DNA of 64,000 bases from an uncultured Pseudoduganella sp. (lineage in GTDB: Bacteria > Pseudomonadota > Gammaproteobacteria > Burkholderiales > Burkholderiaceae_D), in NCBI GenBank assembly GCA_966211685.1, contig CBIHOX010000011.1, forward strand, positions 7,649 to 71,648, read 5' to 3'. The position numbers and the translations under genes were made by a program. The stretch's first letter is position 1. Each line of letters begins with the position of its first letter. Shown one piece after another: positions 1,593 to 28,928 of this stretch. Under the pieces are notes generated by a model. It saw nothing but the letters and a program-made list of their open reading frames with translations. It did no database searches and was not told where the DNA came from.

Positions 1593-4500
1593 TCAGGCAA
1601 CAAACAAATCGTAGCTGACCCCGCCCCCGATGACTGCAGCCAGCGTCTGCTGGTTTTCCGGGCTTTCACTGAACGCGGCCAGCACGTCCGAAACGGGCGC
1701 CAGTTTCTTGTTCAGCACATCCAGCCAGAAGGCATATCCGCCCTGTTCCGGCGCACGGTGCAAAACATTGTTGTACAGGCGCGTGACCAGTTCTTCATTG
1801 GTCGGGCTGGCGCCGTACAGGGCCTTGAATTCCGGCGAATTCACAAAGCCGGCCGCCACCGCGCCTTGCGTGACGCCATTGTCCATCATGGCGATCCAGA
1901 AGCCCAGGCCGGTGGCGTCGGGCGCGCGGTCGAACGCGGCCTGGTACATGCGGTACGCCTGGCCGGCAATACCGCTGGCGTCGGTATCGAACGCCATGGC
2001 GGCCTTGTCGTCGAACACCAGGCGCTCGACATTGGCCAGCACATCCTTGCCGTCCGCGCCTTTGTCCACGGTCAGGCCGCCGTTGCCGTCAGGCAGGACC
2101 GTAAAGGCGCTGCGCGCGCCCTGGTAGCGCACCGTATCGAGTCCGGCGCCGCCGTCGAACACGTCGTTGCCCGCGCTGCCGGCCAGGGTGTCGTTGCCGC
2201 TGCCGGCCAGCAGGTTGTCGCTGCCCGCCGTGCCACTGATCTTGCCGGACTGCACGGCCGGTTCATTGCGCGTGGTGAAATCATACGCATCGGTTGCCAG
2301 GTTGCCGTTGCCGGCCTGGTCGAGAATCACGCCGGCCGGCACCACCAGCTTGTAATGTGTGTTGCTCTTCAATGGCGCCGTCGGGTCGATGGTGACCGTG
2401 CCACCATTGATCGTGATGCGGTCGCTGGTGGCGACGTTGAAGCGTTCCACCAAGGTGCCATTGTCCAGCACGAGGTCGACCATCCCGGCGCCGCGCACGA
2501 CGGGATCGGAAAACACCACGGTGATGTTACTGTTCAGTGCTGCATTGAGCGCGCCATCTTCGGGTGTCACCGAGACCACTTCCAGCCCCTTGGCTTCGGT
2601 GGTGAAGTTGTACGCGTCGGTCGCGTCGATGCCGTTGCCAGCCAGGTCGACCACGGCTCCGGCCGGCACCACCATATGGTAATGCGTGCCCGGCTGCAAG
2701 TTCGCGGAAGGATCGATGGTCACCACGACGCCATTGACTGTCACGCGCTGGCTGGTCGCGATATTGAAGCTTTCCACCACGGTGCCGTCATCGAGCGCCA
2801 GCTGGACGATGCCTGTGCCGCGCTTGACGGGCTCCGAGAAGATCACCGTGATATTGGAATCGACGGCAACATCGGCGGCGCCATTGTCGGGGAAGATCGA
2901 AGACAGGTCGGGGCCCGAACTGTCGTTGTTGGTGACGCTGACCGTATACGCGCCGGTGGTGCTGTTCATGCCGCTGGCCGCCACATAATATGTGCCGCCC
3001 GTGATTGCCTTGTAGGTCAGGCTGGCATTAACACCGCCGCCACCATCGTCATTGCTGTCCATCAAGGAAGCGACATTGTTATACAGGCGCAGCAGTGGAT
3101 CGAGCGTGCTGCCGCTGGCGGCTTTCACGTTGATGGTATAAGTTGCGCCGGCCGCCAGGGTCACCGCGAACCAGTCGCTGTCGCCAACCGCTTCCACGTT
3201 GCCCTGCGCCGTGCCGCCGACGGTGGCCTTGCCGGTGGTGACCGTGCTGGCGGCAAAATCGTCAACCCCGGCCGTCAGCGTGGCCGCCACGGTATAGCCG
3301 CCAGTGCTGCCGTTGAGGTTACCTGCCGAGACGTAATAGGTACCGGCAGCGGTCGCCTTGAACGACAGTTGCGACGAACCATTGAGCCCCCCGTTACCAG
3401 TGGACAACAGCGTGCCGGCGCTGTTGTACAACTTTATCTGCGACGACAGCAGGTTGCCGCTGAACGGCGTCTGGTCGAAGCGGTAAGTCGAGCCCGATGC
3501 CAGTGTCACGGCAAACCAGTCCGTGTCCGCCGAGGTTTCGATTTTGCCGGTCGTGAAGCTGTCAATGGCCAGCTTGCCGGTGGTGGCCGTGGTGGCGGCA
3601 AAATCATCGGCGAAGCCGACCTGGAAGGCCGACACGCGGTAGCTGCCGGTGCTGGTATTGGAAGCGCCGGCCGACACATAGTAAGTGCCGCCCACGGCCG
3701 GCTTGTACGACACTTGCGACGCGCCGCCCTCCGTCGAGGCGCCGGTGGCCAGCAGGCTGCCGAAACTGTTGTAGATTTTCACCTGCGAGCTCAGCGCGCT
3801 GCCGGTGGCCGGGAACTGGTCGAAACGGTAATTCGTGTCGGCCTTGAGGGTAATGGCGAACCAGTCCTTGTCGCCGGACGTTTCCACCTTGCCGGTCACG
3901 CTGCCGTTCACCGCAAGCTTGCCGGTGGTGCCGGTGCCGGCCAGGTAATCATCGACGCCGGCAGCCACTTTGGCGGCCACGCTGTAGCTGCCGATGCTGC
4001 TGTTGAGCGATCCGGCCGACACGAAATACGTGCCGCCGGCAGTCGGGGTATAGGTCAGTTGCGACGCATTGCCGGCCGTGGCCACGCCGGTCGCCAGCAG
4101 GCCGCCAAAGCTGTTATAGATTTTCACCTGCGAGCTCAAGGCGCTGCCGGCGGCCGGCAACTGGTCGAAACGGTAGGTCGTGCCGGCCGTTAAGGCGACG
4201 GCAAACCAGTCCGCATCGCCCGACGTTTCCACCCTGCCTGAAGTGCTGCTGCCCACCGCCAGCTTGCCGGTGGTGCCGATGCCCGCCGCATAATCGTCGG
4301 CCGGGGCGCCCAGCTTGGTGAGGTCGACCACCTTGTCGCTGAACGAGGCGAATTCGATATTGCTCAGGGTATCGGTACCGCCGGCACTGACCACCGTGAA
4401 TTTATTGGTGGTGGGATTGTAGGTAATGGTGGCGCTGGTGGAGGTGCCGCTGAAGGAGGCGGTATCGACGCCCTCGCCGCCGTCCAGCGTATCGTTGCCC

Positions 4501-5564: not shown

Positions 5565-5716
5565 GGTTGTCTCCGGAAGAAAGGCAAGAAGTTTGTCCTG
5601 AACGATGGATTGTACGTGAAATATTACCAACAATCAGTAGCAATATATCCACAGTAACTAAAATTCCACCGCCCTGCCCCGTCCCGTTCTACAGCCCGCT
5701 GCTCTCCGCCAGACTG

Positions 5717-8700
5717 CTAGCCGCCATACGGCTGATAACCGAAGCCGCTGCCGATTACCGCCACCATGTTGTCCTGGTTTTCCGGGCTTTCGCTGAACGC
5801 GGCCAGCACGGCCGGCACCGTGGCCAGTTTGTTGTCGAGCACATTGAGCCAGAATGCGATGCCGCCACTGTCGGGCGCGCGGTGCAGCACGTTCTTGTAC
5901 ATGCGCGTCACCAATTCTTCATTGGTGGGGCTGGCGCCATATAACTGCTGGAATTCCGGGGAATTGACAAAGGCGGCAGCGACGTCTTGCCGGGTCACGC
6001 CGTTGTCCATCATGCTGATCCAGAAACCGAGGCCGGTGGCGTCCGGCGTGCGGTCGAACGCGGCCTGGTACATGCGGTAAGCCTGGCCGGCAATGCCGCC
6101 GGCCCCGGTATCGAAGGCCATCGCGCCATCGTTGAACAACAGCCGCTCCACGTTGGTGAGCACATCCTTGCCGGCCGCGCCCTTGTCCACCGTGACCACC
6201 ATGGCAGCGCCGCCGCCCTCGGCCTGCGCCGTGAAGGCGGCGCGCGCGCCCTGGTAGCGCACCGTATCGAGCCCGGCGCCGCCATCGAACAGATCGTTGC
6301 CGGCGCTGCCCGCCAGCGTATCGTTGCCGCTGCCGGCCAGCACGTCATCGCTGCCGGCAGTGCCGGCATAGGTTCCGGGCTGGTTCGATGGCGCGCCGCG
6401 CGTGGTGAAATCGTAGCCATCGATTCCCGCAATGCCGTTGCCGGTCAAATCCGTGATGGCGCCGGCCGGCGTCAACAACCTGTAGTGAGTACCTACTTTC
6501 AATGGCACGGTCGGGTCGATGGTCACCGTGGCGCCATTGATGGCGATGCGCGGGCTGGTGGCGACGTTGAAACTCTCCACCACGGTGCCATCGTCCAGCA
6601 GCAGTTGCACGTTGCCGCTGCCGCGTTTGACGGCTTCGTTGAAGGTGGCCGTCAGGTTGGCGTTCAAGGTCACCCCGGTGGCGCCATCGTCCGGGAATAC
6701 CGACACCAGTTCCGGCGCCGCCGTATCGCCATTGGCGACCGAGACCGTGTAGGCGCCAAGGGTGTTGTTGGCGCCGCTCGCGGCAATGTAATACGTGCCG
6801 CCGGCGGCGGCCTTGAACGACAGGCGCGCATTGAGGCCGCCGCCGCCATCGTCATTGGTGTCGAGCAAAGTGGCGGCATTGTTGTACAAGCGCAGCAATG
6901 GATCGACCAGGCTGCCGGCCGCGCCCTTGACCTCGATGGTGTAGGTGGCGCCGGCCGTCAAGGTGACGGCAAACCAGTCGGCGTCGCCGGCCGATTCGAT
7001 AGTGCCGGCCGTCGCGCCGCCCACCGTGACCTTGCCGTTGGTGGCCGTGGTGGCGCTGAAATCATCGGTGACCTGCACTGCGGCAGCCAGCGCGTACGCG
7101 CCCGTGCTGGTATTGCCGGCCCCGGCGGAGACGTAATACGTGCCGGCGGTCGTGGCCTTGTACGTCAGTTGCGATGTGCCGCCGGTGCCGGCCGCGCCGG
7201 TGGCCAGCACCGTACCGGCGCTGTTGAAGATCTTGATTTGCGAGCTGAGCTGGCTACCCTGGGCCGGGGCCAGGTCGAAGCGGTAGGACGTGCCGGCCGC
7301 CAGGGTCACGGCGAACCAGTCGCTGTCGCCGGACGTTTCCACGGTGCCCGTGGCGCTGGAACCGATGGCCAGCTTGCCGGTGGTGGCCGTGGTGGCCGTG
7401 TAATCGTCGGCAATCACCACTTGCGCCACCGCCACGCTGTATGCTCCGGTGCTGGCGCCGTTGCCGCTGTCGGCCGCCGCGGCCGAGACGTAATACGTAC
7501 CGGTGGCGGTGGCCTTGTAGGTCAGGCTGCCATTGCCGCCGCCTCCGCCATTGTCATCGGTGGCTTGCAGCGCGCCGGCGCTGTTATACAGGCGTAAGAG
7601 CGGATCGAGCTGGCTGCCGCCGGCCGCGTTCAGGGTAATCGTGTACGTGGCGCCGGCCGTGAGGGTCACGGCGAACCAGTCCGCGTCGCCCGGCGTTTCC
7701 ACGTTGCCGGTGGCGCTGGCGCCCACGGTCACCTTGCCGGTGGTGGCGCTGGTGGCGGTGTAATCGTCGGTCGCGACCAGCGCCGCGGCCACGCTGTAGG
7801 CGCCGGTGGCCGCGCCCGTGGCCACGCCAGTGGCGGCCGAAGCCGCCACGTAATACGTGCCGGCCGTGGTGGTCTTGTACGACAATTGCGACGCGCCGCC
7901 GGCGGCCGTGCCGCTCGCTTGCAGCTGGCCCGCGCTGTTGTAGATTTTGACTTGCGGCGACAGCGTGCTGGCGCCGGCCGGCGCCACGTCGAAGCGGTAG
8001 GTGGTATTGGCCGCCAGGGTAATGGCAAACCAGTCGGCGTCGCCCGAGGTTTCCACGCTGCCGGTGGCGCTCGAACCTACCGCCAGCCTGCCGCCGGTGG
8101 CGGTGGTGGCGGTATAGTCGTCTGCCGCCACCGTGAGCGTGGCCGCCACGCTGTAGCTGCCGGTGCTGTTGCTGGTGCCGCCGGCCGACACATAATACGT
8201 GCCGGCCGTGCTTGCCTTGTACGACAGTTGCGATGCGCCGCCGGCCGCGCTGGTCCCGGTGGCCAGCAAACTGCCGCTGCCGCCATAGATGCGCACTTGC
8301 GAGGTCAACGCACTGCCGGTCACCGGCGCCAGGTCGAAACGGTAAGTCGCGCCGGCCGCCAGGGTCACGGCAAACCAGTCGGTGTCTCCCGCTGTTTCCA
8401 CGCTGCCGGTGGCGCTGGCGCCGACCACGAGCTTGCCGGCGGTGGCGGTGGTGGCCGTGTAATCGTCGCCAACGCCGCCCAAGGTGCTCAAGTCCACGGT
8501 CTTGTCGGAAAACGAGGCGAATTCGATATTGCCCAGGATATCGGTGCCGCCGCCGGCCGTCACCACGGTGACCTTGCGCGTGGCCGCGTTGTAGGTGAGC
8601 GTGGCGGCGCCCGCCAGGCCGGAAAACACGGCAGTATCGGTACCGGCGCCGCCATCGAGCGTATCGTTGCCGGCGCCGCCGGCCAGGCTGTTGTTGGCGT

Positions 8701-9742
8701 CATTGCCAATCAGCGTGTCGTTGCCGCTGCCGCCGATGGCATTCTCAATGATGCAGCCAAAGGCGATGCCGAGGTTGTCGGTGCCGTCATAATTGGGCAG
8801 GTCGCCGCCGCTGAAATTGAAGCCGTCGGTGGAGGCCGATTCTATCGTGATCTTGGAATAATGGCCGGGCTGCAAATCAATGATGCAACCCTTGGTGAAG
8901 TTCGACACCGAGATGGTATCGGCGCCGCCCGCATCCCAGATGGTGCGCATGAATGGCGAGGCCGGGTCGAACGTATAGGTATCGTTGCCGGTCCTGTACG
9001 ACGTGTTGGCCCCGTACAGGTACTGGATGGCGGCAATGTCGTCGACCATCGGCGTTTCCGGCACGATCGATTGCAGGTGGTAGGTCTCGCTGTTGCCGGA
9101 GGCGATGATCGAGCCGAACAGGCTGTGCGCGCCATCGGTATACGACATCACCGTGTATTGCCGCGTATCCTGCGCCCCGGTCAGGACCGGCGTGTCGGAA
9201 AACGAGTGTTTCAAGCCCAGCGCATGGCCGATTTCATGGATCAGCGAATAAAAATCGTAATCGCCCGCATTCCAGCCGCCATTGACCACCGAGGCCAGGC
9301 CGGCGTTGAACCAGATGTCGCCGCCGCTGGGAAAGACATTGTCCGGATAGCCGGCCCACGCGGCAGCTTCGGACGGCAGTGCGGACGACCAGGCAAAGCG
9401 CACGTCGCCCACGCTGGCGCCGGTGTCGGCGGTCGTCGTGAAGGTGACGTTGGCCACCGAGGCCCAGGTTTGCAGCGCGGCCGTCGCCGCCGCTTGCTGG
9501 ATGGCGTTGAAGCCATAGTGCTGGGGCGCTTCGAATTCCTGCGCCGTGGAGTAATCCGAACTGCTGCCGGTCGGCCCCAGGAAGGTCGCGCTGTCGGAAG
9601 CGGCCCACGGGAAGCTGTACGTCAGCGTGGCGCCCGTTCCCAGCGCCCCGCCCCACTTCATGCCGGCCAGCAGGGCGTTGATGATCAATTGGGAACTGTT
9701 GGCGACGTTGGTGATCGTGCCCGCGGTGCTGGGGGATGGCAT
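5717..9742 (-). CDS. Serralysin-like metalloprotease P2: 5 PPC-like repeats, 1 Ig-like domain, C-terminal DUF4214-type domain
   Basis: HEIGHALGLKH, TVMSY, RTX nonapeptides, five DD(Y/F)xATxAT repeats, same C-terminal domain. Start moved to MPSP (9742). Confidence 0.9.
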   Translation of the reverse strand: MPSPSTAGTITNVANSSQLIINALLAGMKWGGALGTGATLTYSFPWAASDSATFLGPTGSSSDYSTAQEFEAPQHYGFNAIQQAAATAALQTWASVANVTFTTTADTGASVGDVRFAWSSALPSEAAAWAGYPDNVFPSGGDIWFNAGLASVVNGGWNAGDYDFYSLIHEIGHALGLKHSFSDTPVLTGAQDTRQYTVMSYTDGAHSLFGSIIASGNSETYHLQSIVPETPMVDDIAAIQYLYGANTSYRTGNDTYTFDPASPFMRTIWDAGGADTISVSNFTKGCIIDLQPGHYSKITIESASTDGFNFSGGDLPNYDGTDNLGIAFGCIIENAIGGSGNDTLIGNDANNSLAGGAGNDTLDGGAGTDTAVFSGLAGAATLTYNAATRKVTVVTAGGGTDILGNIEFASFSDKTVDLSTLGGVGDDYTATTATAGKLVVGASATGSVETAGDTDWFAVTLAAGATYRFDLAPVTGSALTSQVRIYGGSGSLLATGTSAAGGASQLSYKASTAGTYYVSAGGTSNSTGSYSVAATLTVAADDYTATTATGGRLAVGSSATGSVETSGDADWFAITLAANTTYRFDVAPAGASTLSPQVKIYNSAGQLQASGTAAGGASQLSYKTTTAGTYYVAASAATGVATGAATGAYSVAAALVATDDYTATSATTGKVTVGASATGNVETPGDADWFAVTLTAGATYTITLNAAGGSQLDPLLRLYNSAGALQATDDNGGGGGNGSLTYKATATGTYYVSAAAADSGNGASTGAYSVAVAQVVIADDYTATTATTGKLAIGSSATGTVETSGDSDWFAVTLAAGTSYRFDLAPAQGSQLSSQIKIFNSAGTVLATGAAGTGGTSQLTYKATTAGTYYVSAGAGNTSTGAYALAAAVQVTDDFSATTATNGKVTVGGATAGTIESAGDADWFAVTLTAGATYTIEVKGAAGSLVDPLLRLYNNAATLLDTNDDGGGGLNARLSFKAAAGGTYYIAASGANNTLGAYTVSVANGDTAAPELVSVFPDDGATGVTLNANLTATFNEAVKRGSGNVQLLLDDGTVVESFNVATSPRIAINGATVTIDPTVPLKVGTHYRLLTPAGAITDLTGNGIAGIDGYDFTTRGAPSNQPGTYAGTAGSDDVLAGSGNDTLAGSAGNDLFDGGAGLDTVRYQGARAAFTAQAEGGGAAMVVTVDKGAAGKDVLTNVERLLFNDGAMAFDTGAGGIAGQAYRMYQAAFDRTPDATGLGFWISMMDNGVTRQDVAAAFVNSPEFQQLYGASPTNEELVTRMYKNVLHRAPDSGGIAFWLNVLDNKLATVPAVLAAFSESPENQDNMVAVIGSGFGYQPYGG

Positions 9743-12308: not shown

Positions 12309-12797
12309 TTAATGCAGCACCGCCCCCTCCGGCACCGGCGCAACCCCTGTCAGCCAGTCCGGCCAAGGCAGCGCCCAATAGCCCAGTTCACTTCCACGCC
12401 GCACGATGGCGAGCCACTGGCGCAGCGGCACGGTTTCCAGCAACAATTGCGCGCTGCCGCCGTCCGCCGATTTGAACGTCAGGCTCACCACGTGGTCGGC
12501 CAGCGCAATGTCGACCTCGTGCACCAGCCAGGCCACACTGTCCTGGGCCGCCTGCACGGGCGCCGAAGGCTGCAGGCTGGACTGGGCGGCCTGCTGCGCG
12601 AACTCTTGCGCCAGCGCGGGCAGCGCCTGCGCGCCGCCCTGCGTTTTCAGCCAGCCGACCAGGTGGTCGAGCAGCAGGCGCACCATGCGCCGTGTCAGCC
12701 ACAACACGACGGGTGCGCCGTCGCCCGTTTCCGCCGACATGCGCAAACGGTCTTCAAATGCCTCGTATTCAGTGGTGAGGCGGTGCAAGGTAATCAT
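12309..12797 (-). CDS. Hypothetical cytoplasmic protein (162 aa) inside the protease array
   Basis: GC3-rich ORF MITLHRLTTEYEAFEDRLRMSAE...VLWLTRRMVRLL...HEVDIA that fills the gap between P4 and P3. No signal peptide or transmembrane segment. Confidence 0.7.
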   Translation of the reverse strand: MITLHRLTTEYEAFEDRLRMSAETGDGAPVVLWLTRRMVRLLLDHLVGWLKTQGGAQALPALAQEFAQQAAQSSLQPSAPVQAAQDSVAWLVHEVDIALADHVVSLTFKSADGGSAQLLLETVPLRQWLAIVRRGSELGYWALPWPDWLTGVAPVPEGAVLH

Positions 12798-14825: not shown

Positions 14826-14835
14826 GGTGCCTCCA

Positions 14836-14871
14836 CAAGAAAATACCCCGGCAGGCGGGCTGGCCGGGGTA
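14836..14871 (-). terminator. Terminator-like hairpin immediately upstream of P4
   Basis: Minus strand TACCCCGGC-cagcccgcct-GCCGGGGTA followed by TTTTCTTG. Confidence 0.5.
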
Positions 14872-14875
14872 CTTG

Positions 14876-14903
14876 ATTGTATGCCGAAAAGAATTCCTGT
14901 TAG
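14876..14903 (-). promoter_or_regulatory. Putative sigma70 promoter of P4 (conserved with the P5 promoter)
   Basis: Minus strand CTAACA-ggaattcttttcggca-TACAAT; 22 of 24 nt identical to 19331-19354. Confidence 0.55.
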
Positions 14904-14949
14904 AAGCCGGAATCACAGGAATCGCGGTGGCGATGCGTGCACGCCACCA

Positions 14950-20602: not shown

Positions 20603-20651
20603 GGCGCGCGGCCGCACCGGCGATACACCGGTGCGCCTGGATCGGCAGAGG

Positions 20652-21431
20652 TCAGTTCAGCTTGCTGAGGTTCAGTACACCGCCATCGTTGAGGAAGTCG
20701 GCCGGCTCGGTGGCCGCCAGTTCCTTCATCTCGGCAGCGATTTGCGCACGCACCTGCACCAGCTTGGACAGCAGCGGCAACTGGTGCATCGACAGCAACT
20801 GGCTGTACGCCACCGCCAGCGCGCCGCTGTCGGCCAGCTCGCGCAGCGCATCGCCCGGCAAGGCGTTCAGGGCGGCCTCGTCGACCTTGAACAGGCCATT
20901 GACGGTCTGTTCGCCCTGGGCGCCGCGCAGGGTCAGCGGCCATGGCGCAAGCACCTTGTGCTTTTGCAGCGCGGTGCATGCCATGGTTGCCTGCATGCGG
21001 CTGCGCTCGGCCTGCACCAGGAATTGCAGCATGCCGGCGATCTTTTGCGCCGGCTTGCCATCTTCTTCAAAGAAACGCTCGCCGGCGGCGTCCACCAAGC
21101 CGCTGGCTTCATCGATGCACAGCACGGCTTCATCATTCTGGCGCGCCAGGCGGAACGGATAGCCGCGCAGCGCGGCCGGCACGTACGAACCCAGCCAGCG
21201 GCCATCGGGCGCCACATACAGGTTGACGCCATCCTGCACACCCATCAGCGCCGACAGCACATAACCGTCGCCATCGGCCAGGAAAGCGATCGGCATGGCC
21301 GGCACGGCGGCAGCCAGTTCCGCGGCAGCCAGCGGCACGACGGCGCTGCCGGCGGCAAACAGGTAATTGGCAGGCGCCTTCCAGCGCAGGTTGGCGTGAC
21401 GCTCTTGGGTAATCAGTTGAATGGTGGTCAT
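20652..21431 (-). CDS. sapC: SapC family protein
   Basis: YLFAAGSAVVPLAAAEL...PIAF...LMG...NLYV...W...YVPAALRGYPFRL...LCID...LFEEDG...LQF...FKVDEAAL..L...L...GAL...YSQLLSM pattern of SapC. RBS GAGG before the ATG at 21431. Lies directly downstream of the S-layer-like gene. Confidence 0.85.
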   Translation of the reverse strand: MTTIQLITQERHANLRWKAPANYLFAAGSAVVPLAAAELAAAVPAMPIAFLADGDGYVLSALMGVQDGVNLYVAPDGRWLGSYVPAALRGYPFRLARQNDEAVLCIDEASGLVDAAGERFFEEDGKPAQKIAGMLQFLVQAERSRMQATMACTALQKHKVLAPWPLTLRGAQGEQTVNGLFKVDEAALNALPGDALRELADSGALAVAYSQLLSMHQLPLLSKLVQVRAQIAAEMKELAATEPADFLNDGGVLNLSKLN

Positions 21432-21485
21432 GGGGTCCTCTGTGAAATTTTTGCTGAAGGCGCTCATTATCGGGTGAACGTCCTC

Positions 21486-21605: not shown

Positions 21606-24600
21606 TTAAGCGGAGAAGTTGGTCGAGGTCAGCGAGTCAGCGGTCACGCCCGACAGGGTACCGATCAGGTCAACCACGATGTTAGCGGTGGTTGCGTCTG
21701 CGCCGGCAGCGGTCGAGGTTACAGCGTACACGTAGGCGTTGCCGCCGCCGTATGCAACAACCGTCAGGTTGCCCGAAGCGGTGGTGCCCAGGGCGCTGGC
21801 GATCAGGGTTTCAACTGCCAGGCCGTCGCCGACTTGGGTTGGAGCCAGGATCGAACCGGCAGCCGATTCGATCTCGATCACGCCACCGGTTGCCACGGTG
21901 ATTGCCGTGCCAGCTGGGTTGGTTACCGTCTGGAAGGCAGTCACGCCAGCCGATGCCACTTTCAGAACGTCAGCCGACGCGCCGGTTGCGGTGAAGCCGG
22001 TGATGGTGTCAGCGCCGGTGGTGATACCGGTTGCTGCGCCACCAGCCAGCGTGGTCAGCGTGAAGGTATCGGTGCCGGTGCCGGCCGTTGCGGTCTGCGC
22101 GGTGGCAGCGTGGAACGTGAAGTTGTTCGCACCGTTAGCCAGTACGTAGTTTTCCACGTTCACGTTACCCGTTGCGGTGCCGGCCGTCGTGAAGGTGACG
22201 GTTTCGGTACCAGCAGCGTTGATGGTCGTGAAGGCGTTGTGCTGTGCCACGGTCATCGATACGGAACCGCCCGAAGCGATGGTTGCCGTGGTGAAGCCTG
22301 CACCGATGGTAGCGCCAGCAATGTTGGAACCAGTTGCCAGGCTCACGATGTCAGCAGCGGTCACTTCGCCGTTCAGCGTACCGGTGAAGGTGCCGCTCAC
22401 GCCCACGGTTACCACGTCGGTTGCCGCGGTGCCGGTGACGGACTGGGCGCCGGTGATGCCGGTCACGGAGATGGCGTTACCAGCAGCATCGCTCAGGGTG
22501 TAGCTTTCCACGTTGGCGTTCGCTGCCACAGCGGTGATTGCCGTGTCAGTGAAGGTTACGGAGTCAGCACCGCCAGCAGCGTTGATGGTGGTGAAGCCAG
22601 CGTACTGAGCCGAGGTCAGCGACAGGTTGCCGGTCAGGTTCAGCACGGTCGCGCCGGTTACGGCACCAGCGTTCACGCCAGCGATGTTAGCGCCGGTGGT
22701 CGCGGTGATGCTGTCCAGAGCTTGCAGCGTGTAGGTACCGGTGACGGTGTTACCGCCCACGTTCACGGTGTCGGTGCCAGCGGAAACAACGTTCACGCCG
22801 GTATCCGATGCCAGAACCGTGAAGGTACGGCCGTCGGTGCCCAGGTTGTAGGTCTCAACACCAGCTTTACCGGTCACAGCGCCAGCGCCGGACAGGGTCA
22901 CGGTGTTGGCACCGGTTGCGCTCAGGGTGGTGATCGCGTTGTGCTGGGTAGCCGACATCGTTACTGCAGCCAGGCCGTCGATGGTCACGGATTCAGCGGT
23001 CAGCGCTGCGCCGCCGTTGATGCCTGCCAGGTTGGTGCCGGTGGTGGTCACAACCAGCGAGTCAGCAGCGCCGGCCAGAGCCAGGGTGCCGGTCGGGGTG
23101 GTGATCGCGCCGGTGTTCACCGTTACGTTGCCAGCGGCCGACACGTTCTGGGCAGCTGCGCCCAGCGTGAAGTTCGAACCGGTAGCCAGTACGTAGCTTT
23201 CAACAGCTGCGTCGCCAGTGTCGGTCAGAGCCGTGGTCACGGTCACGGTGTTGGTGCCCGTTGCGTTGAAGGTGGTTACAGCAACGTGCTGAGCAGCGGT
23301 CATCGAAACAGCAGCAATGCCGTTGATGGTCACGGTTTCAGCAGTCGTGTCCGCGCCGCCGTTGATGCCAGCCAGGCTGGTACCAGTGGTGGTCACAACC
23401 AGGGTGTCGCCAGCGCCAGCCAGAGCCAGGGTGCCGGTTGGAGCGGTGATCGCGCCGGTGTTCACGGTGACGTTGCCAGCAGCCGACACGTTCTGAGCAG
23501 CTGCGCCCAGGGTGAAGGTGGAGCCGGTTTGCACGGTGTACGACTCGATAGCTGCGTTACCGGTCAGGGTAGCAACATCGCTGATGGTCACGGATTGTGC
23601 GCCGGTAGCGGTGAAGCTGGTAGCAGCAGCCAGCGTGTCGAACTGAGCCTTCGTTGCGGTCAGGGCCAGGCCAGCAGCCAAGGTCACGGTGTTGAAGCCG
23701 GTCAGGTTGCCGATGGTCGAGGTGCCGCTGATGGTCAGCGTGTCGGTTGGCAGGGTTGCCGCGGCGTTGACTGCGCCGGTGGTGACGCCATCCTTGAACA
23801 CGTTGTTGGTCGCGTTCGCGGTGAAGTCCACGGTGTACGAGCTGCCCAGGGTGCCAACTTCGAAGTCAGCTTGTGCCAGCGATGCTGGGCTGTTCGACAG
23901 GTTCAGCTGGATGTCGTTCGCGTTCAGCGCGCCGTCGTTGTTGACGTCGATCCACAGGGTGTGGGTGGCGGTATCCAGAACGGCGTCGATGGTGCCGCCA
24001 GCCGAGATCGCGCCTTGAGCTGCGCCGAACGAGCTGTATGCGCCAACGTAGGTGACTGCGCTGGTGTACACGATCTTGTCGGTGCCCGATACGAAGTCGG
24101 TGATGGTGTCAGCATTGTCCGCGCCAACGTCGCTTGCCACGATGTAGAAGCGGTCGGTGCCGGTGCCACCGGTCAGCACGTCTTTGCCAGCGCCGCCCAG
24201 GATCGAGTCGTTGCCTGCGCCACCGATGATGGTGTCGACTTTCGCGCCGCCCAGGATGCGGTCAGCACCTGCGCCGCCGGTTACGCTGTACGAACCGTCC
24301 AGTTCAGCGGTACCAACGAAGTTGAAGGCAGCAGCAGCGTTGGTCAGCGCGGATGCGTCGACGTTCAGCGTTTTGCCAGCTTCCAGGTTGCTGTTCACGG
24401 TGGTGATCGATACGCCGTTGGCGCCGTTGGCTTCAACGAACACGTTTTCGATCTTCGTTACGCCGTTCAGGTTGGCAACTGCGTTGTCAGCAACAACTAC
24501 CAGCTTGTCACCGGTGTTGGTGCCGCCGGTGATCACGTCGGTGCCCGACAGCGAAGCTGCGGTCGAACGTACGGTCATCAGGCCGGTTGCCAGGCTTGCG

Positions 24601-27600
24601 TTGACGGTGTCGTTGCCGCCGGCGCCCAGGTTGATGGTCAGGTTGCTGGAGAAGCCTTCACCCACGTTCACGCTGTCGTCGCCCGTGCCAACGGTGATGT
24701 CTTTCAGGCCGTTCTTGTTGGCGATCGCGTTCACGTTGATGGTGTTGTTGCCGTTGCTCAGCACCAGGTTTTCAACGGAATCCCAGTTGTTGAAGATAGC
24801 GTCGTTCAGGACTGCGGCATCCGTCGTGATCTTGACGGTGTCGGTACCTGCGCCACCTTTCACGGTGTCGGCCGAAGTGATGCCTTCGGTTGCGACAACA
24901 GCGCTGTAGGTGAAGTTGAAGGTGTCGTCGCCGGCACCGCCATCCAGGTAATCAACGCCTTCCACGCCGGAAACTGCGCCGGTACCAGCGGTGATGGTGT
25001 CGTTGCCGTCGCCGCCAACGATCGAATCGTCGCCGTTGCCGCCGATGATCACGTCGTTGCCTGCACCGCCGGTGATGGTGTCTTTACCAGCAGCGGTGGT
25101 CACGGTCCAGCCGCCTGCGCCTACAGTGATCTTGCCGTTTGCGCCGCCGGTCAGGGTGACGGAGCCAGCGCCAGCGCCGGTGGTCACGGTGTGGGTTGCG
25201 GTCGAGCCAGCAGCCGAGTTCAGGGTGATGACGTCTGCGCCCGAGCCCGAGTTCACGGTGAAGGTGCCGGTGCTGGTGCCATTGCCCAGGGTGATGGTGT
25301 CAACGCCGGTGCCGCTGTTCACGGTCACGGATTGTGCAGCAGCAGCGGTCGCTGCGAACGACACGCCGCCCGACAGAGCGGTTGCGTCAACGGTAGCCAG
25401 CTTGGTCGAGCCGATGGCTGCGGTGATGACAACCTTGTCTTCGCCCGACAGGGTCAGCTTGGTCAGGTTGGCGCCATCCAGCGAAGCCGCGGTGATGGTT
25501 TCAACGGTGTTGCCTACGGCGCCGTTGTTGGCGTCTTTGGCGGTCACGGTGACGTTTTCAGCCTGGCTGAACAGCAGCGCGCCGGTCGCGTAGTTAGCGG
25601 TGTCGGTGGTCAGGTTCAGGGTCAGGTTGTCAGCTGCCGTGTCGGTAGCGTGGGTCACGGTCAGGTTGTCCGCGCCAGCGAAGCCGGTGGTTGCTGCACG
25701 GGCGTTCACGTTCACCACCACGTTGTTGGCAACGTTGTTCAGGGCAACAGCGCCATTGGTGCCGTTGTCGAACGAGAAGGTGTTGATCACGTGATCGGTG
25801 CTGCCCGAAGCCTTGGTGCCGCCGTTGCCTGCATCCAGAACACCAGACGTTGCGTCGGTGAAGGTCAGGTTTTCAACGTTGGTGGTGTTGGCGAACGTAT
25901 CGGCGTCAACAGTAACGCTTGCAATGGTGGTGGTCGACACGGTGTCGGTGCCGGTGCCGCCGTTGACGGTGTCGCTATTGCGGTAGTTTGCACCCAGCTT
26001 GATGGTATCGTCGCCGGCGCCGGCGTTCACGTTGGACTTGCCTACGTTAGCCGATACGTCCAGCGTGTCGCTGCCCGAACCGGAGGTTACCGACAGAGCG
26101 GTGCCAGCCAGGGTCACGTAGTTGCCCGAGGTGATGTTCAGGTTGCCGGTGAAGGCGCCTGCATCGATGGTGCCCACGGTGCCGTTCAGGCCAGCGGTGA
26201 TGGTCAGGTTCTGGTTACCAGCGATGGTGACTTTCGAAGCGTCCACGTTCAGCGCGCCGACGACCGATGCTGCGCCGCTGGTGGTGATGGCCACGGTTTC
26301 GATGCCGGTGTTGCCAGCGCCAACCAGTGCGTCGGTGTTGGTACCGATCTTGATGGTGCCGGTGCTGTTACCGTTCAGCAGGATCTTCTGGGTGTCGGCT
26401 GCGCCAGCAACAGCGGCAGCTTTGTAAGCCAGGGTCAGGTCGGAAGCGTTCAGTGCGTTAGCAACTTCCAGGTCAACGATCTGGCCGATGTTTTTCACGG
26501 TCAGGTTGTTGTTCGAGGACGACGAACGAACGGTCTTCAGTGCGGAGTCAACGTTTTCCAGGCCCAGGATGGTCGCGCCTTCAGCTGCTGGAGCTTGAGC
26601 TTGAACTTCCAGAACTTCGATGTTTTTCACGACGAAGCCTTGTACCTGGCTTGCGTTGGTGATGGCAGCGTTGTTGGTGGACGAGGTAACCACGCGCAGG
26701 GTGTCGGTGCCCACGCCGCCGTCGATCGAGTCGGACGATTGCAGGGTGGTGGATTGACCGGTCTGGCCGATGATGGTGTCATCGTTCAGGCCAGCGATGA
26801 CCACGTCGGTTGCGCTGATGGTCAGGGCCTTGCTCTGTGGGCCGGCTTCAACAACGGCGTCTTGAGCAACTTTCTGGTGAGCAGCAACCAGCAGTTGAGC
26901 AGCAACCAGCGGATCGTTGATGGCTTTGATGGCGGCAGCGGTAGCGGCCGAAGCAACGTCGTCAGCGGTCGACTTGGTGGTGCCTACAACAGCGGCGAAG
27001 TCAGCAGCGGCGGTGTTAGCAACAACAACGCTGGCCAGTGCTTTTTCGATCGCGGTTTTTTCGTTGGTGGCAGCGGTAGCCAGAGCCGTGGCGTTGGCAA
27101 CGGATTTGGACAGGTCGAATGCAGCTTTCGCGTCAACGTACGCTTTGGTTGCTGCAGCGGCAGCGTCAGCGTCGGTCTTGGCGGTAGCCAGTGCCGTGGT
27201 GTAAGCACCTTTCTTGGCATCGGAGATCGCTTGAGCAGCAGCTTCAACAGCGTCTTCACCAGCTTTGATGGCGTCGTCAACAACGGTCTTGGCAGCGGCA
27301 GCAGCGGTCACAACGGTGTTAGCGTTGGTCACGGCGGTAGCGGCAGCGGTGTTGTCAGCGGCGTTGACGGTCTTGTCAGCGGCAGCTTTCAGTGCGTCAG
27401 CAGCGGTCTTGGCATCGGCAGCGGCGGCAACAGCGGCGTCTGCAGCGGTCTTCGCGTTGGCGATGGTGGTCGGCACCTTGGCGACAGCAGCGGCTGCGTC
27501 GGCGATGGTCTTGTTGCCAGCGGTCAGGTTGGCGGCAGCGGTGTTCGAAGCAGCCAGCTTGGTGGCGGCGTCTTGCTGTGCTTTAGCCAGGTTGAAGTCG

Positions 27601-28928
27601 GCAACCGACTTGGTCGCGCCGGTAGCAGCGATTTCGTCAGTGTTACCACCAGCAACGGCAGCGTTGTACGCGTCGGTAGCAGCTTTGGCATCGGCTTGTG
27701 CGGTGGTCAGCACGCCTTGGGCTGCGTCGGATGCGGCTTTGGCATCGTTTGCTGCGGTGGTCAGAGCGGCAACGTCAACAGCGGCAGCGGCCGTTTTCAG
27801 GGCAGCGGCAGCGTCTTGGTCGATCTTGATCTGGGCAGCAGCGGTGGTAGCAGCAGCGGCCTTGGCGGTAGCGTTGGCGTTAGCGGTGGTAACGGCAGCT
27901 TGTGCGTCGATCACGGCTTGCACCAGTGGCTTCTCAGCAACAGCAGCGGCTACGTGGGCAGCAGCGTCGGTCACCAGCTTGGCAGCAGCGGTCTGAGCAG
28001 CAGCAGCGTCTGCAACAGCTTTGATTGCCAGCGCGTCGTCAGCGGTGGTGGCGGTTTTCAGTGCTTTGGCCAGGTAGTTGTCGGCAGCGGCTTTCGCGGT
28101 GTCGGCAGCGGTCTTGGCAGCGTCGGCAGCAGCTTTCTCGGTGTCGGCAGCGGTCTTGGCAGCGTCAACCTTGGCGATGGTGTCCGAACCTTCCAGGGCA
28201 ACTTTAGCAGCTGCGGCAGCGGTAGCGGCGGTAGCGGCAGCGGTGGCGGCAGCGGTTACTGGCGCGGTCAGGGCGGCGGCAGCCAGGTTCGCGTCGAACT
28301 CGGCAGCAGCGTTGGCGTCGTAGGTGCGCAGCACTTCGTTGGTCACCAGTGCCAGGGCAGCAGGTGCGGTAGCAGCAGCCAGCGAGGCAGCGTCCTTAAC
28401 CGAGTTCAGGAACGACGTACCCCATGCGTTTGCCTGTGGGCCGCTGTAAGCCAGTTGCAGGGCAACGCTGTCAGCGATTTTTGCGGTGAACGCGGTAGCA
28501 GCAGCCAGCTTGCTTGCAACGGTTTCAACGTCTTGGCCTTTTGCGTTCGAGAACATCGTGTTCAGCGTGAAGCTGACAGCTTGCGCTTTGACTTCGGCTT
28601 TCTCAGCAGCGGTCAGTTTCGTGTTGGCGGCGTTGGCGGCATCAACACTGTTCAGGTAGTCGGTGTAGAAGTTCAGGCCTTCCTGGTCCGGCAGACGACC
28701 GAACGAGTTCTGGTACATCTTGGCAACCAGTTGCTGGTTGCTCAGTTTCGGCGTTACATAGATCGCCTTGTACTCTTCGTTGTTGGCAAAGAAGTTTGCC
28801 ACGGCTTTCATGTCGATCTTGTTTGCAGCCAGCAGATCTTCCCAAAACTTCAAACCGGCTGGGTCAGCGGGACGGTTGTAGTAAGCGATATACAGTTTTT
28901 GCAGATCGGAGGTGTACTGTGTTGCCAT
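21606..28928 (-). CDS. Giant S-layer-like T1SS substrate (2440 aa): N-terminal SapA/DUF4214-type domain, ~490-aa Ala-rich stalk, Thr/Gly/Asn-rich beta-helix region with RTX motifs
   Basis: N-terminus DLQKLYIAYYNRPADPAGLKFW...NQQLVAKMYQNSFGRLPDQEGLNFY. Many GGxGxD motifs, no signal peptide, RBS AGGAG, high-expression codon bias, and adjacency to sapC and a T1SS gene. Confidence 0.85.
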   Translation of the reverse strand: MATQYTSDLQKLYIAYYNRPADPAGLKFWEDLLAANKIDMKAVANFFANNEEYKAIYVTPKLSNQQLVAKMYQNSFGRLPDQEGLNFYTDYLNSVDAANAANTKLTAAEKAEVKAQAVSFTLNTMFSNAKGQDVETVASKLAAATAFTAKIADSVALQLAYSGPQANAWGTSFLNSVKDAASLAAATAPAALALVTNEVLRTYDANAAAEFDANLAAAALTAPVTAAATAAATAATAAAAAKVALEGSDTIAKVDAAKTAADTEKAAADAAKTAADTAKAAADNYLAKALKTATTADDALAIKAVADAAAAQTAAAKLVTDAAAHVAAAVAEKPLVQAVIDAQAAVTTANANATAKAAAATTAAAQIKIDQDAAAALKTAAAAVDVAALTTAANDAKAASDAAQGVLTTAQADAKAATDAYNAAVAGGNTDEIAATGATKSVADFNLAKAQQDAATKLAASNTAAANLTAGNKTIADAAAAVAKVPTTIANAKTAADAAVAAAADAKTAADALKAAADKTVNAADNTAAATAVTNANTVVTAAAAAKTVVDDAIKAGEDAVEAAAQAISDAKKGAYTTALATAKTDADAAAAATKAYVDAKAAFDLSKSVANATALATAATNEKTAIEKALASVVVANTAAADFAAVVGTTKSTADDVASAATAAAIKAINDPLVAAQLLVAAHQKVAQDAVVEAGPQSKALTISATDVVIAGLNDDTIIGQTGQSTTLQSSDSIDGGVGTDTLRVVTSSTNNAAITNASQVQGFVVKNIEVLEVQAQAPAAEGATILGLENVDSALKTVRSSSSNNNLTVKNIGQIVDLEVANALNASDLTLAYKAAAVAGAADTQKILLNGNSTGTIKIGTNTDALVGAGNTGIETVAITTSGAASVVGALNVDASKVTIAGNQNLTITAGLNGTVGTIDAGAFTGNLNITSGNYVTLAGTALSVTSGSGSDTLDVSANVGKSNVNAGAGDDTIKLGANYRNSDTVNGGTGTDTVSTTTIASVTVDADTFANTTNVENLTFTDATSGVLDAGNGGTKASGSTDHVINTFSFDNGTNGAVALNNVANNVVVNVNARAATTGFAGADNLTVTHATDTAADNLTLNLTTDTANYATGALLFSQAENVTVTAKDANNGAVGNTVETITAASLDGANLTKLTLSGEDKVVITAAIGSTKLATVDATALSGGVSFAATAAAAQSVTVNSGTGVDTITLGNGTSTGTFTVNSGSGADVITLNSAAGSTATHTVTTGAGAGSVTLTGGANGKITVGAGGWTVTTAAGKDTITGGAGNDVIIGGNGDDSIVGGDGNDTITAGTGAVSGVEGVDYLDGGAGDDTFNFTYSAVVATEGITSADTVKGGAGTDTVKITTDAAVLNDAIFNNWDSVENLVLSNGNNTINVNAIANKNGLKDITVGTGDDSVNVGEGFSSNLTINLGAGGNDTVNASLATGLMTVRSTAASLSGTDVITGGTNTGDKLVVVADNAVANLNGVTKIENVFVEANGANGVSITTVNSNLEAGKTLNVDASALTNAAAAFNFVGTAELDGSYSVTGGAGADRILGGAKVDTIIGGAGNDSILGGAGKDVLTGGTGTDRFYIVASDVGADNADTITDFVSGTDKIVYTSAVTYVGAYSSFGAAQGAISAGGTIDAVLDTATHTLWIDVNNDGALNANDIQLNLSNSPASLAQADFEVGTLGSSYTVDFTANATNNVFKDGVTTGAVNAAATLPTDTLTISGTSTIGNLTGFNTVTLAAGLALTATKAQFDTLAAATSFTATGAQSVTISDVATLTGNAAIESYTVQTGSTFTLGAAAQNVSAAGNVTVNTGAITAPTGTLALAGAGDTLVVTTTGTSLAGINGGADTTAETVTINGIAAVSMTAAQHVAVTTFNATGTNTVTVTTALTDTGDAAVESYVLATGSNFTLGAAAQNVSAAGNVTVNTGAITTPTGTLALAGAADSLVVTTTGTNLAGINGGAALTAESVTIDGLAAVTMSATQHNAITTLSATGANTVTLSGAGAVTGKAGVETYNLGTDGRTFTVLASDTGVNVVSAGTDTVNVGGNTVTGTYTLQALDSITATTGANIAGVNAGAVTGATVLNLTGNLSLTSAQYAGFTTINAAGGADSVTFTDTAITAVAANANVESYTLSDAAGNAISVTGITGAQSVTGTAATDVVTVGVSGTFTGTLNGEVTAADIVSLATGSNIAGATIGAGFTTATIASGGSVSMTVAQHNAFTTINAAGTETVTFTTAGTATGNVNVENYVLANGANNFTFHAATAQTATAGTGTDTFTLTTLAGGAATGITTGADTITGFTATGASADVLKVASAGVTAFQTVTNPAGTAITVATGGVIEIESAAGSILAPTQVGDGLAVETLIASALGTTASGNLTVVAYGGGNAYVYAVTSTAAGADATTANIVVDLIGTLSGVTADSLTSTNFSA

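What the first reader, a model, noticed from the sequence alone, without database searches (positions are those of the whole stretch)
1593..28928. Five secreted proteases carry at their C-termini the domain that begins the S-layer protein: a surface-tethered protease coat
Seen: the S-layer N-terminus (LYIAYYNRPADPAGLKFW...F..NEEY...Y....SNQQLV..MYQN.FGR.PD..G..FY) aligns by eye with the C-terminus of all five proteases (MYQAAFDRAPDATGLGFW...F.NSPEF...Y....TNEELV..LYNN.LHRAPE..G..FW). Established: the N-terminal domains of Campylobacter fetus SapA and Caulobacter RsaA anchor the S-layer to LPS, and classical serralysins are released freely. Inference: these proteases are exported by the adjacent T1SS and dock on the same O-polysaccharide, possibly the Wzm/Wzt product encoded here. 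That would give an enzymatically armed S-layer for defence against predators or phage, for nutrition, or for lattice remodelling.
Basis: partly seen in the sequence, partly recalled or inferred. Interest (0 to 1): 0.85.

Follow-up and report, generated by a model that had tools for sequence, protein, structure and literature searches.

The report
Secreted proteases with DUF4214 tails
Five neighbouring secreted zinc proteases in a Duganella-like soil bacterium end in the same known but uncharacterised helical module (DUF4214) that opens the giant surface protein encoded next to them; it may hold them on the cell surface, but the module is common in this genome and the idea already has a precedent in Caulobacter.

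Summary
All five minus-strand proteases (M10/serralysin type with RTX repeats) end in Pfam DUF4214 (PF13946, E 1e-25 to 1e-29). The 2440-aa RTX protein begins with DUF4214 (E 9e-11). BLASTP gives 31% identity over 83 aa (E 4e-12), and hhalign gives 99.3% probability (E 2e-20).

The link is not special to these six proteins:
- The genome has 22 DUF4214 proteins.
- Seventeen carry the same "RTX cap + DUF4214" tail on varied cargo.
- Two are lipoproteins.
- One further protease carries the N-terminal form seen on the giant protein.

Only about 125 of the roughly 200 residues in the giant protein's N-terminal module are shared. That protein is not a shown S-layer protein. Sequence, profile and fold searches found no match to any RsaA chain. 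The nearest fold is the phycobilisome linker.

Surface tethering is plausible but untested. Points in its favour:
- Caulobacter Sap shares a domain with RsaA.
- P. putida Psh (RTX-DUF4214) is exported by a type I secretion system (T1SS) and stays cell-bound.
- This locus holds the genome's only PrtD-type T1SS.
- Wzm/Wzt linkage is conserved in Massilia.

Earlier scan notes recorded the same DUF4214 theme on other DNA.

Verdict: a new member of a known kind, of moderate interest.

The parts
1..1389 (-). N-terminal 463 aa of the T1SS ABC permease/ATPase. The full gene is 688 aa and runs off the left end of the window. HlyD-type adaptor (452 aa) and TolC-type channel (429 aa) genes follow on the contig.
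   Evidence: Pfam ABC_membrane + ABC_tran. Full-length protein: TIGR01842 PrtD type, 774 bits against a cut-off of 510. MFP: TIGR01843, 393 bits. OMP: TIGR01844, 324 bits. It is the only PrtD-type hit above the cut-off in the genome.
1593..5564 (-). Protease 1 (1323 aa from the ATG at 5564): M10 head, RTX, 4 PPC, 2 Big_5, RTX cap and DUF4214 tail. The tail is at 1593-2210.
   Evidence: Translation; Pfam. The zinc motif HELGHALGFKH and the Met-turn TVMSY are read directly from the sequence.
5717..9742 (-). Protease 2 (1341 aa from the ATG at 9742): M10 head, RTX, 5 PPC, 1 Big_5, RTX cap and DUF4214 tail. The tail is at 5717-6334.
10005..12275 (-). Protease 3 (756 aa): M10 head, RTX, 1 PPC, RTX cap and DUF4214 tail. 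The tail is at 10005-10622.
12309..12797 (-). 162-aa ORF between proteases 3 and 4. It has no signal peptide and no family match. It is not a recognisable serralysin inhibitor.
   Evidence: Coding-type GC3 of 0.81. No Pfam or NCBIfam hit. Sequence.
12900..14825 (-). Protease 4 (641 aa): the minimal form, with the M10 head and RTX joined directly to the RTX cap and DUF4214 tail. The tail is at 12900-13517.
   Evidence: AlphaFold2 model of the last 205 aa: pLDDT 93.4, pTM 0.88, showing a beta-roll/cap, eight helices and a final strand.
14950..19290 (-). Protease 5 (1446 aa): M10 head, RTX, 6 PPC, 1 Big_5, RTX cap and DUF4214 tail. The tail is at 14950-15567.
19370..20617 (-). GT4-family glycosyltransferase (415 aa).
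   Evidence: Pfam Glyco_trans_4_3 (E 1e-62) and Glycos_transf_1.
20652..21467 (-). SapC-family protein (271 aa), directly downstream of the giant RTX protein.
   Evidence: Pfam SapC, E 4.9e-62. It is the only copy in the genome. The family is not specific to S-layer loci, because two congeners carry it in unrelated contexts.
21606..28928 (-). Giant RTX surface protein (2440 aa). Residues 1-200 form the N-terminal module (nt 28329-28928), whose DUF4214 core is residues 9-132 (nt 28533-28904). An Ala-rich segment of about 490 aa follows, then about 1750 aa of beta-helical/RTX sequence.
   Evidence: AlphaFold2 model of residues 1-215: all-helical, pLDDT 93.3. The N-terminal module has 11,614 relatives at E<1e-3, many of them RTX proteins of 650-1400 aa that begin 'MATTYY.DIQKLYVAYFNRPAD'.
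35780..37806 (+). Wzm (266 aa) and Wzt (408 aa, with the Wzt_C carbohydrate-binding domain): an ABC exporter for O-polysaccharide. An FkbM methyltransferase and glycosyltransferases follow.
   Evidence: Pfam. The same Wzt-Wzm / Crp / CHASE2-cyclase / FecR block flanks the orthologous DUF4214 RTX protein and T1SS in Massilia loci L032 and L033.

Best explanation
The window holds five old tandem paralogues of a serralysin-type (M10) zinc metalloprotease. Each has no signal peptide. Each is built as catalytic head, RTX beta-roll, a variable spacer (0-6 PPC units and 0-2 Big_5 domains), and a conserved 205-residue C-terminal unit. That unit consists of a short RTX block, a beta cap, a helical DUF4214 domain and a final strand.

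The proteases are most likely exported, C-terminus first, by the PrtD/HlyD/TolC type I secretion system (T1SS) encoded directly downstream. The DUF4214 unit is homologous to the first ~125 residues of the N-terminal module of the adjacent 2440-aa RTX protein. It is also a genome-wide tag, found on at least 17 proteins that lack signal peptides.

Its most likely role is to keep the exported protein on the cell envelope. The target could be the O-polysaccharide made by the linked Wzm/Wzt cluster or the giant RTX protein itself. The proteases would then work as cell-bound enzymes held at different distances from the surface rather than as free exoenzymes.

What is shown: domain architecture, homology, gene linkage and purifying selection on the tails. 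What is inferred: export by this T1SS, surface retention, and the ligand.
For: - Architecture and homology.
- The tail folds as one compact unit (pLDDT 93.4, pTM 0.88).
- The tails are as constrained as the catalytic heads. dN/dS is 0.21-0.35 for tails and 0.25-0.40 for heads, with dS 0.33-0.94, so the copies are old and all maintained.
- A complete T1SS is adjacent, and it is the only PrtD-type system above the cut-off in a 91%-complete genome.
- Seventeen proteins without signal peptides share the tail at a fixed distance from the C-terminus.
- Two Sec/lipobox lipoproteins carry the same beta-cap + DUF4214 unit just after the lipid anchor, so the unit has a role in the envelope that does not depend on type I export.
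- Linkage of an N-terminal-DUF4214 RTX protein, a T1SS and Wzm/Wzt is conserved in Massilia.
- Literature: Caulobacter Sap is an RTX protease whose C-terminal half resembles the RsaA N-terminus and is secreted by a T1SS (PMC3034196). It is compared with S-layer-associated proteases in PMC13274458.
- P. putida Psh (RTX + C-terminal DUF4214) needs a T1SS, protects only the producing cell, and is typically encoded near O-antigen genes.
- DUF4214 is called a likely surface-anchoring domain in SFB.
Against: - No experiment in any organism shows DUF4214 binding LPS. For Psh the O-antigen contact was only modelled in silico.
- The nearest solved folds for both modules are phycobilisome linker domains, which bind proteins rather than glycans. 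The matches are weak (TM 0.45-0.49).
- DUF4214 also occurs in bacteria that have no LPS, so the family as a whole cannot be LPS-specific.
- In every type I cargo here the tail occupies the position where the secretion signal normally sits, so its conservation could reflect export and folding alone.
- The giant protein is not shown to form an S-layer.
- The Massilia orthologous loci contain no proteases, so the protease/surface-protein pairing is not conserved.
Confidence: 0.5

Rival explanations
1. The RTX-cap + DUF4214 unit is mainly an export and folding device. It would be a non-classical type I secretion signal plus a calcium-dependent folding nucleus that leaves the channel first. The proteases would then be released as ordinary free exoenzymes for nutrition, and the resemblance to the giant protein's N-terminus would only reflect reuse of a common stable helical domain.
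For: - In all 17 tailed proteins the last repeat starts 84-88 residues before the stop codon, and the proteins end in a conserved G-[FIMV]-x-[YF]-x-[PAL]-[YWF] motif. This is where type I signals lie.
- No other C-terminal signal is present.
- The genome has only one PrtD-type exporter.
- The cargo is very diverse: proteases, propellers and adhesins.
- In the model the final strand packs back onto the beta cap.
Against: - The same unit sits near the N-terminus of two Sec-exported lipoproteins.
- DUF4214 lies at the N-terminus of the giant protein and of the C119 protease, which end in separate RTX repeats with no DUF4214 at the C-terminus.
- Congener proteases carry DUF4214 internally, followed by a different 'LVGV' C-terminus.
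- So DUF4214 is not itself the signal.
- Psh acts only on the producing cell.
Confidence: 0.3
2. The tail tethers the proteases through protein-protein contacts, not through LPS. DUF4214 on the proteases would dock onto the DUF4214-containing N-terminal module of the giant RTX protein, or onto other DUF4214 proteins, in the way phycobilisome linker domains plug into their partner proteins.
For: - Both modules have phycobilisome linker domains as their nearest fold and profile relatives.
- The review hypothesis for Caulobacter Sap is association with S-layer monomers.
- DUF4214 also occurs in bacteria without LPS.
Against: - The fold similarity is weak.
- Twelve tailed proteins are encoded far from the giant protein.
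- The Massilia loci keep the O-polysaccharide linkage.
Confidence: 0.15
3. The by-eye similarity is chance or a compositional artefact of Ala/Gly-rich high-GC proteins.
For: None found.
Against: BLASTP E 4e-12. Pfam hits above the gathering score in all six proteins. hhalign probability 99.3%, E 2.3e-20.
Confidence: 0.01

Closest known systems
Caulobacter crescentus Sap (S-layer-associated RTX metalloprotease) together with the RsaA S-layer protein and its RsaD/E/F type I system
   Same: [quoted passage not shown] Both lack a recognisable classical type I signal yet are, or are likely to be, exported by a type I system (PMC3034196). NCBIfam 'protease SapA' is the best-scoring curated model for protease 4.
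   Different: - The shared domain here is DUF4214. PF13946 does not match the Caulobacter control genome, and no PDB chain, so no RsaA entry, matched the giant protein's N-terminal sequence or profile or ranked in the Foldseek top 50.
- The SapA model scores 195 bits against a cut-off of 1200 and covers only the head and RTX part.
- Here there are five tandem copies with spacer arrays, plus five more DUF4214 proteases elsewhere in the genome.
- The surface protein is 2440 aa and is not a shown S-layer protein.
Pseudomonas putida Psh (PP_1794), an RTX + C-terminal DUF4214 protein (bioRxiv 10.64898/2026.09.02.748959)
   Same: The tail has the same architecture (RTX repeats followed by C-terminal DUF4214). 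Export depends on a type I system, and the gene lies near T1SS and O-antigen genes. That preprint's domain census already lists serralysin-like peptidases and 'S-layer signature' proteins among DUF4214 fusion partners.
   Different: Psh has no enzymatic cargo and acts as a phage-receptor shield. Here the module carries proteases. O-antigen binding by Psh is itself only modelled.
Classical serralysins (MEROPS M10B: Serratia PrtSM, Pseudomonas AprA, Dickeya PrtA/B/C/G)
   Same: They share the HEXXHXXGXXH zinc site, the Met-turn, the RTX beta-roll after the catalytic domain, the lack of a signal peptide, and an adjacent PrtD/E/F-type exporter.
   Different: - The proteases here carry extra PPC/Big_5 spacers and a second RTX block with DUF4214 in place of the classical C-terminal signal.
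- They score below the NCBIfam serralysin cut-off (186 against 500).
- No Inh/AprI-type inhibitor gene was recognised.
DUF4214-tailed surface proteins of segmented filamentous bacteria (PMC3371716, PMC12780176)
   Same: Many otherwise unrelated secreted proteins of one organism share a C-terminal DUF4214 that is proposed, but not tested, to be a surface anchor.
   Different: SFB is a Gram-positive host with Sec export, no RTX repeats and no LPS.
Phycobilisome linker domain (Pfam PF00427)
   Same: It is the nearest solved fold and profile relative of both modules.
   Different: The similarity is weak (TM 0.45-0.49). The linker domain works in an unrelated cytoplasmic protein-protein scaffold. 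The modules here are not members of that family.

Membership tests
Pfam DUF4214 (PF13946) | Score above the Pfam gathering threshold (23.2 bits) | tested here: met
   Proteases score 89-100 bits and the giant protein 42 bits.
Serralysin family (M10B) | Zinc motif HEXXHXXGXXH plus a Met-turn with Tyr | tested here: met
   HE[LI]GHALG[FL]KH and TVMSY are present in all five translations. Pfam Peptidase_M10 matches.
Serralysin family (M10B) | RTX beta-roll domain following the catalytic domain | tested here: met
   Pfam Peptidase_M10_C and HemolysinCabind match in all five.
Serralysin family (M10B) | Score above the NCBIfam Zn_serralysin (NF035945) cut-off | tested here: not met
   185.9 bits against a cut-off of 500 for protease 4. 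These are divergent relatives, not canonical members.
Serralysin family (M10B) | Export by a dedicated PrtD/E/F-type type I system | tested here: inconclusive
   The genes are adjacent and complete. Export itself cannot be tested with these tools.
Caulobacter protease SapA (NCBIfam NF051884) | Full-length match above the equivalog cut-off, including the RsaA-like C-terminal half | tested here: not met
   195 bits against a cut-off of 1200, with only profile positions 58-408 of 644 matched.
RsaA/SapA-type RTX S-layer protein | N-terminal LPS-anchoring domain homologous to that of RsaA | tested here: not met
   Residues 1-285 give no PDB sequence hit. The profile hits only phycobilisome linkers. 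Foldseek top 50 contains no RsaA. PF13946 does not match the Caulobacter control genome.
RsaA/SapA-type RTX S-layer protein | RTX repeats, no signal peptide, and linkage to a type I system | tested here: met
RsaA/SapA-type RTX S-layer protein | Forms a two-dimensional crystalline lattice on the outer membrane | not testable with these tools
   Homologues carry no S-layer annotation. The top-ranked papers on these genera do not mention S-layers.
Psh-type RTX-DUF4214 proteins | RTX repeats followed by a C-terminal DUF4214, with nearby T1SS and O-antigen genes | tested here: met
   The definition comes from the preprint.
Psh-type RTX-DUF4214 proteins | Direct sequence similarity to PP_1794 | not tested
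The top 120 hits to the tail were all from Oxalobacteraceae or metagenomes.

The most novel reading that the evidence does not exclude
DUF4214 is a general docking tag for the cell's own O-polysaccharide (or for the giant RTX protein). With it, a single type I secretion system would dress this bacterium with about 20 different enzymes and adhesins. These would include ten metalloproteases, the five encoded here being held at graded heights by 0-6 PPC spacers. The result would be a modular, enzymatically armed surface coat rather than a free secretome.
Probability: 0.3. Interest if true: 0.7.

Novelty: new member of a known kind. Interest (0 to 1): 0.4.

Why it matters
If the tail does retain type I cargo on the cell, DUF4214 (over 11,000 relatives of the N-terminal form alone) would be a widespread and so far unproven surface-display tag of Gram-negative bacteria. 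That would change how 'secreted' RTX enzymes are read in soil and rhizosphere genomes. It would also offer a compact display handle for biotechnology. This genome is a convenient test case because it has many tailed proteins, one PrtD-type exporter and a linked O-polysaccharide cluster. As it stands, the locus mainly adds a clear, multi-copy example to an idea already raised for Caulobacter Sap, P. putida Psh and SFB surface proteins.

Tried and rejected
1. Homology of the shared domain to the RsaA LPS-binding N-terminal domain. I expected this from a remembered resemblance of the N-terminal sequences. It is rejected for lack of support. There were no PDB sequence or profile hits, no RsaA in the Foldseek top 50, and no PF13946 match in the Caulobacter control genome.
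2. SapC as a marker of an S-layer locus. This is weakened. SapC occurs in 34 of 101 genomes of the family. In two congeners it lies in unrelated contexts with no DUF4214, T1SS or protease neighbours.
3. The 162-aa ORF between proteases 3 and 4 as a serralysin inhibitor. It has no signal peptide and no Pfam or NCBIfam hit.
4. Names for the giant protein's relatives. Cluster look-up and homologue names gave only 'hypothetical' or 'DUF4214 domain-containing'.
6. Ford et al. 2007 (PMC1899406) is not held. I relied on the RTX review for Sap.
7. A literature search for S-layers in Massilia, Duganella and Janthinobacterium returned no paper mentioning S-layers among the 15 top-ranked listed.
8. Finding P. 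putida Psh by searching with the tail. The top 120 hits were all from Oxalobacteraceae or metagenomes.
Full report
**What is in the sequence.**

The minus strand of the first 29 kb is one run of co-oriented genes. In order of transcription they are:
- a 2440-aa RTX protein (21606-28928);
- a SapC-family protein (20652-21467);
- a GT4 glycosyltransferase (19370-20617);
- protease 5 (14950-19290);
- protease 4 (12900-14825);
- a 162-aa ORF with no family match (12309-12797);
- protease 3 (10005-12275);
- protease 2 (5717-9742);
- protease 1 (1593-5564);
- the start of an ABC exporter (1-1389).

On the contig the exporter is a complete type I secretion system (T1SS). The ABC protein is 688 aa (TIGR01842 PrtD type, 774 bits against a cut-off of 510). 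A HlyD-type adaptor and a TolC-type channel follow it.

All five proteases lack a signal peptide. They carry the serralysin zinc site (HE[LI]GHALG[FL]KH) and Met-turn (TVMSY). They also match Pfam Peptidase_M10, Peptidase_M10_C and RTX repeats. After these come 4, 5, 1, 0 or 6 PPC units and 2, 1, 0, 0 or 1 Big_5 domains. Each then has a second short RTX block and a C-terminal DUF4214.

**Checking the observation.**

The by-eye alignment is correct, and the shared element is the Pfam family DUF4214 (PF13946). The proteases score 89-100 bits and the giant protein's N-terminus 42 bits, against a gathering score of 23.2.
- BLASTP of the giant protein's first 203 residues against protease 4 gives 31% identity over 83 residues, E 4e-12.
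- I built a profile of 17 tails from this genome (A1) and a profile of 25 N-terminal modules (A2).
- These two profiles align with 99.3% probability, E 2.3e-20, over 102 columns. The aligned part is giant-protein residues 9-132 against tail residues 85-187.

The homology is therefore secure, but it covers only the DUF4214 core. The giant protein's N-terminal module continues for about 70 conserved helical residues that are absent from the proteases. The protease tail has an RTX/beta-cap part that is absent from the giant protein's N-terminus.

AlphaFold2 models of both modules are confident (pLDDT 93.3 and 93.4). The N-terminal module is all helical. The tail is a beta-roll and cap, eight helices, and a last strand.

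**The wider picture changes the reading.**

The whole genome (6.39 Mb, 308 contigs, 91% complete) has 22 ORFs with DUF4214.

Seventeen of them carry the same tail. Its last repeat starts 84-88 residues before the stop codon. It follows an RTX block and ends in a conserved G-[FIMV]-x-[YF]-x-[PAL]-[YWF] motif. All those with a complete N-terminus lack a signal peptide. Their cargo is varied:
- four more metalloproteases;
- PPC/Big_5 arrays;
- PD40 and DUF5122 propellers.

A 2601-aa Ig-repeat protein without a signal peptide carries several DUF4214 copies, the last about 290 residues before its C-terminus, so it is not one of the 17.

Two further proteins are lipoproteins with a Sec signal and lipobox. 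They carry the beta-cap + DUF4214 unit right after the lipid anchor.

One 850-aa M10/RTX protease on another contig (C119) begins 'MATQYTAAIEKLYVAYFNRPAD'. That is the same N-terminal module as the giant protein ('MATQYTSDLQKLYIAYYNRPAD').

Outside this genome the tail is very common in Pseudoduganella, Massilia and Telluria on serralysin, subtilisin, trypsin-like, Calx-beta and other cargo. The N-terminal module has 11,614 relatives at E<1e-3. Many are RTX proteins of 650-1400 aa that start at residue 1 with the same motif.

Named homologues place the organism in the Duganella/Pseudoduganella group of Oxalobacteraceae. So the five proteases are one instance of a lineage-wide set of DUF4214-tagged exported proteins. 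They do not have a private link to the giant protein.

**Is the giant protein an S-layer protein?**

This is not shown.
- In favour: it has no signal peptide, has RTX repeats, sits with a SapC gene and a T1SS, and has a conserved N-terminal module, like RTX S-layer proteins.
- Against: every named homologue is 'hypothetical' or 'DUF4214 domain-containing'.
- Against: the top-ranked papers on these genera do not mention S-layers.
- Against: SapC-family genes occur in a third of the family's genomes. In two congeners they lie in unrelated contexts.
- Against: about 490 residues of Ala-rich sequence suit a fibril as well as a lattice.

I expected the N-terminal module to be related to the LPS-binding N-terminal domain of RsaA, but found no support:
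- there was no PDB hit by sequence or profile;
- there was no RsaA in the Foldseek top 50;
- PF13946 does not match the Caulobacter vibrioides control genome.

The nearest solved relatives of both modules are phycobilisome linker domains. The profile E-value is 1.5e-5 and TM-scores are 0.45-0.49. These are protein-binding scaffolds.

**How it most likely works.**

*Shown:*
- the architecture and the homology;
- the adjacency of the only PrtD-type T1SS above the cut-off in this genome;
- purifying selection on the tails equal to that on the catalytic heads: dN/dS is 0.21-0.35 for tails against 0.25-0.40 for heads, and dS of 0.33-0.94 shows the copies are old;
- conserved linkage, in two Massilia loci, of Wzt-Wzm, a Crp/CHASE2-cyclase/FecR block, an N-terminal-DUF4214 RTX protein of about 1270 aa, a T1SS and further small DUF4214 proteins.

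*Inferred:*
- The proteases leave through this T1SS with the C-terminus first.
- The RTX-cap + DUF4214 unit therefore emerges and folds first with calcium.
- It keeps the enzyme on the envelope.
- The PPC/Big_5 arrays set the distance of the catalytic head from the surface.

The lipoproteins and the N-terminal and internal positions of DUF4214 argue that DUF4214 is not merely the secretion signal.

Published parallels support retention:
- Caulobacter Sap is an RTX protease whose C-terminal half resembles the RsaA N-terminus. It is secreted by a T1SS despite lacking a recognisable signal (PMC3034196).
- P. putida Psh is an RTX + DUF4214 protein that needs a T1SS, protects only the producing cell, and is typically encoded near O-antigen genes. 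Its O-antigen contact is only modelled.
- In SFB, DUF4214 is regarded as a likely surface anchor.

I put surface retention at about 0.5. Within that, a glycan ligand is somewhat more likely than a protein ligand. A pure export and folding role, with free enzymes, stands at about 0.3.

**Comparison with the known, and novelty.**

The system works like Caulobacter Sap/RsaA but is not a member of that family. The SapA model scores 195 bits against a cut-off of 1200 and covers only the head and RTX part. The shared domain also belongs to a different family.

The proteases are divergent serralysin relatives, scoring 186 bits against a cut-off of 500.

The tail fits the Psh-type RTX-DUF4214 architecture. 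The Psh preprint already lists serralysin-like peptidases and S-layer-signature proteins among DUF4214 fusion partners.

Earlier notes of this scan describe the same theme on other DNA: Prochlorococcus, an alphaproteobacterial island, and a divergent DUF4214 tail on three proteases. I did not test those notes.

This locus is therefore a new, unusually multi-copy member of a known kind. The attractive part is still open: whether DUF4214 is a general surface-docking tag that lets one exporter coat the cell with about 20 enzymes. That is testable with the experiments listed.

**Limits.**
- No multimer or ligand modelling was available.
- The Psh sequence could not be compared directly.
- The genome is a draft, so counts of DUF4214 proteins and exporters are lower bounds.

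Noticed in passing
G000:C119:~13990-16600 (own genome, outside the window): An 850-aa M10/RTX protease begins with the same N-terminal module as the giant protein ('MATQYTAAIEKLYVAYFNRPAD'). It ends in RTX repeats with no DUF4214 at its C-terminus. It is the mirror image of the five window proteases. Orthologues occur in Duganella sp. FT92W (83% identity) and in Pseudoduganella.
   Followed up: partly
G000:C18:~48200-51000 and G000:C2:~29100-30800 (own genome): Two lipoproteins with a Sec signal and lipobox (fn3 + YHYH, and an FKBP isomerase) carry the beta-cap + DUF4214 unit directly after the lipid anchor. DUF4214 is therefore used in the envelope independently of type I secretion.
   Followed up: partly
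whole genome G000; the exporter is at window 1-1389 and L031:4321-9037: Only one PrtD-type T1SS ABC gene scores above the family cut-off in the genome. At least 19 RTX/DUF4214 proteins without signal peptides are encoded on 12 contigs. This suggests one exporter serves many scattered cargo genes.
   Followed up: partly
window 28928-37806; L032 and L033 (Massilia): The block FecR / CHASE2 adenylate cyclase / TPR protein / (VanZ, HDOD) / Crp / Wzm-Wzt lies in the same order beside the N-terminal-DUF4214 RTX protein and T1SS in two Massilia loci. The cAMP module and O-polysaccharide exporter are therefore conserved neighbours of this surface-protein system. The Massilia loci lack the proteases, SapC and GT4.
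   Followed up: partly
window 12309-12797 (-): A 162-aa ORF with coding-type codon bias sits between proteases 3 and 4. It has no signal peptide and no Pfam or NCBIfam match. Its function is unknown.
   Followed up: partly
L035:11388-15320 (congener G012): Two tandem 645-aa M10/RTX proteases in a congener carry DUF4214 internally (residues ~490-555), followed by ~90 residues ending in an 'LVGV'-type C-terminus. Many small N-terminal-DUF4214 proteins from metagenomes share this ending. It may be a second type of type I signal in this clade.
   Followed up: no
window 21606-28928: The giant RTX gene has a lower third-position GC (0.72) than its neighbours (0.78-0.88) and a strong positive GC skew across 22-28 kb. 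This may reflect its Ala/Thr-rich repeats, different codon usage or a different origin.
   Followed up: no
window 45236-49560 (+): Two adjacent paralogous ~705-aa proteins with C-terminal DUF7024 lie within the glycan cluster, followed by three AT3-family acyltransferases (one with an SGNH domain). They are probably polysaccharide-modifying membrane proteins.
   Followed up: no
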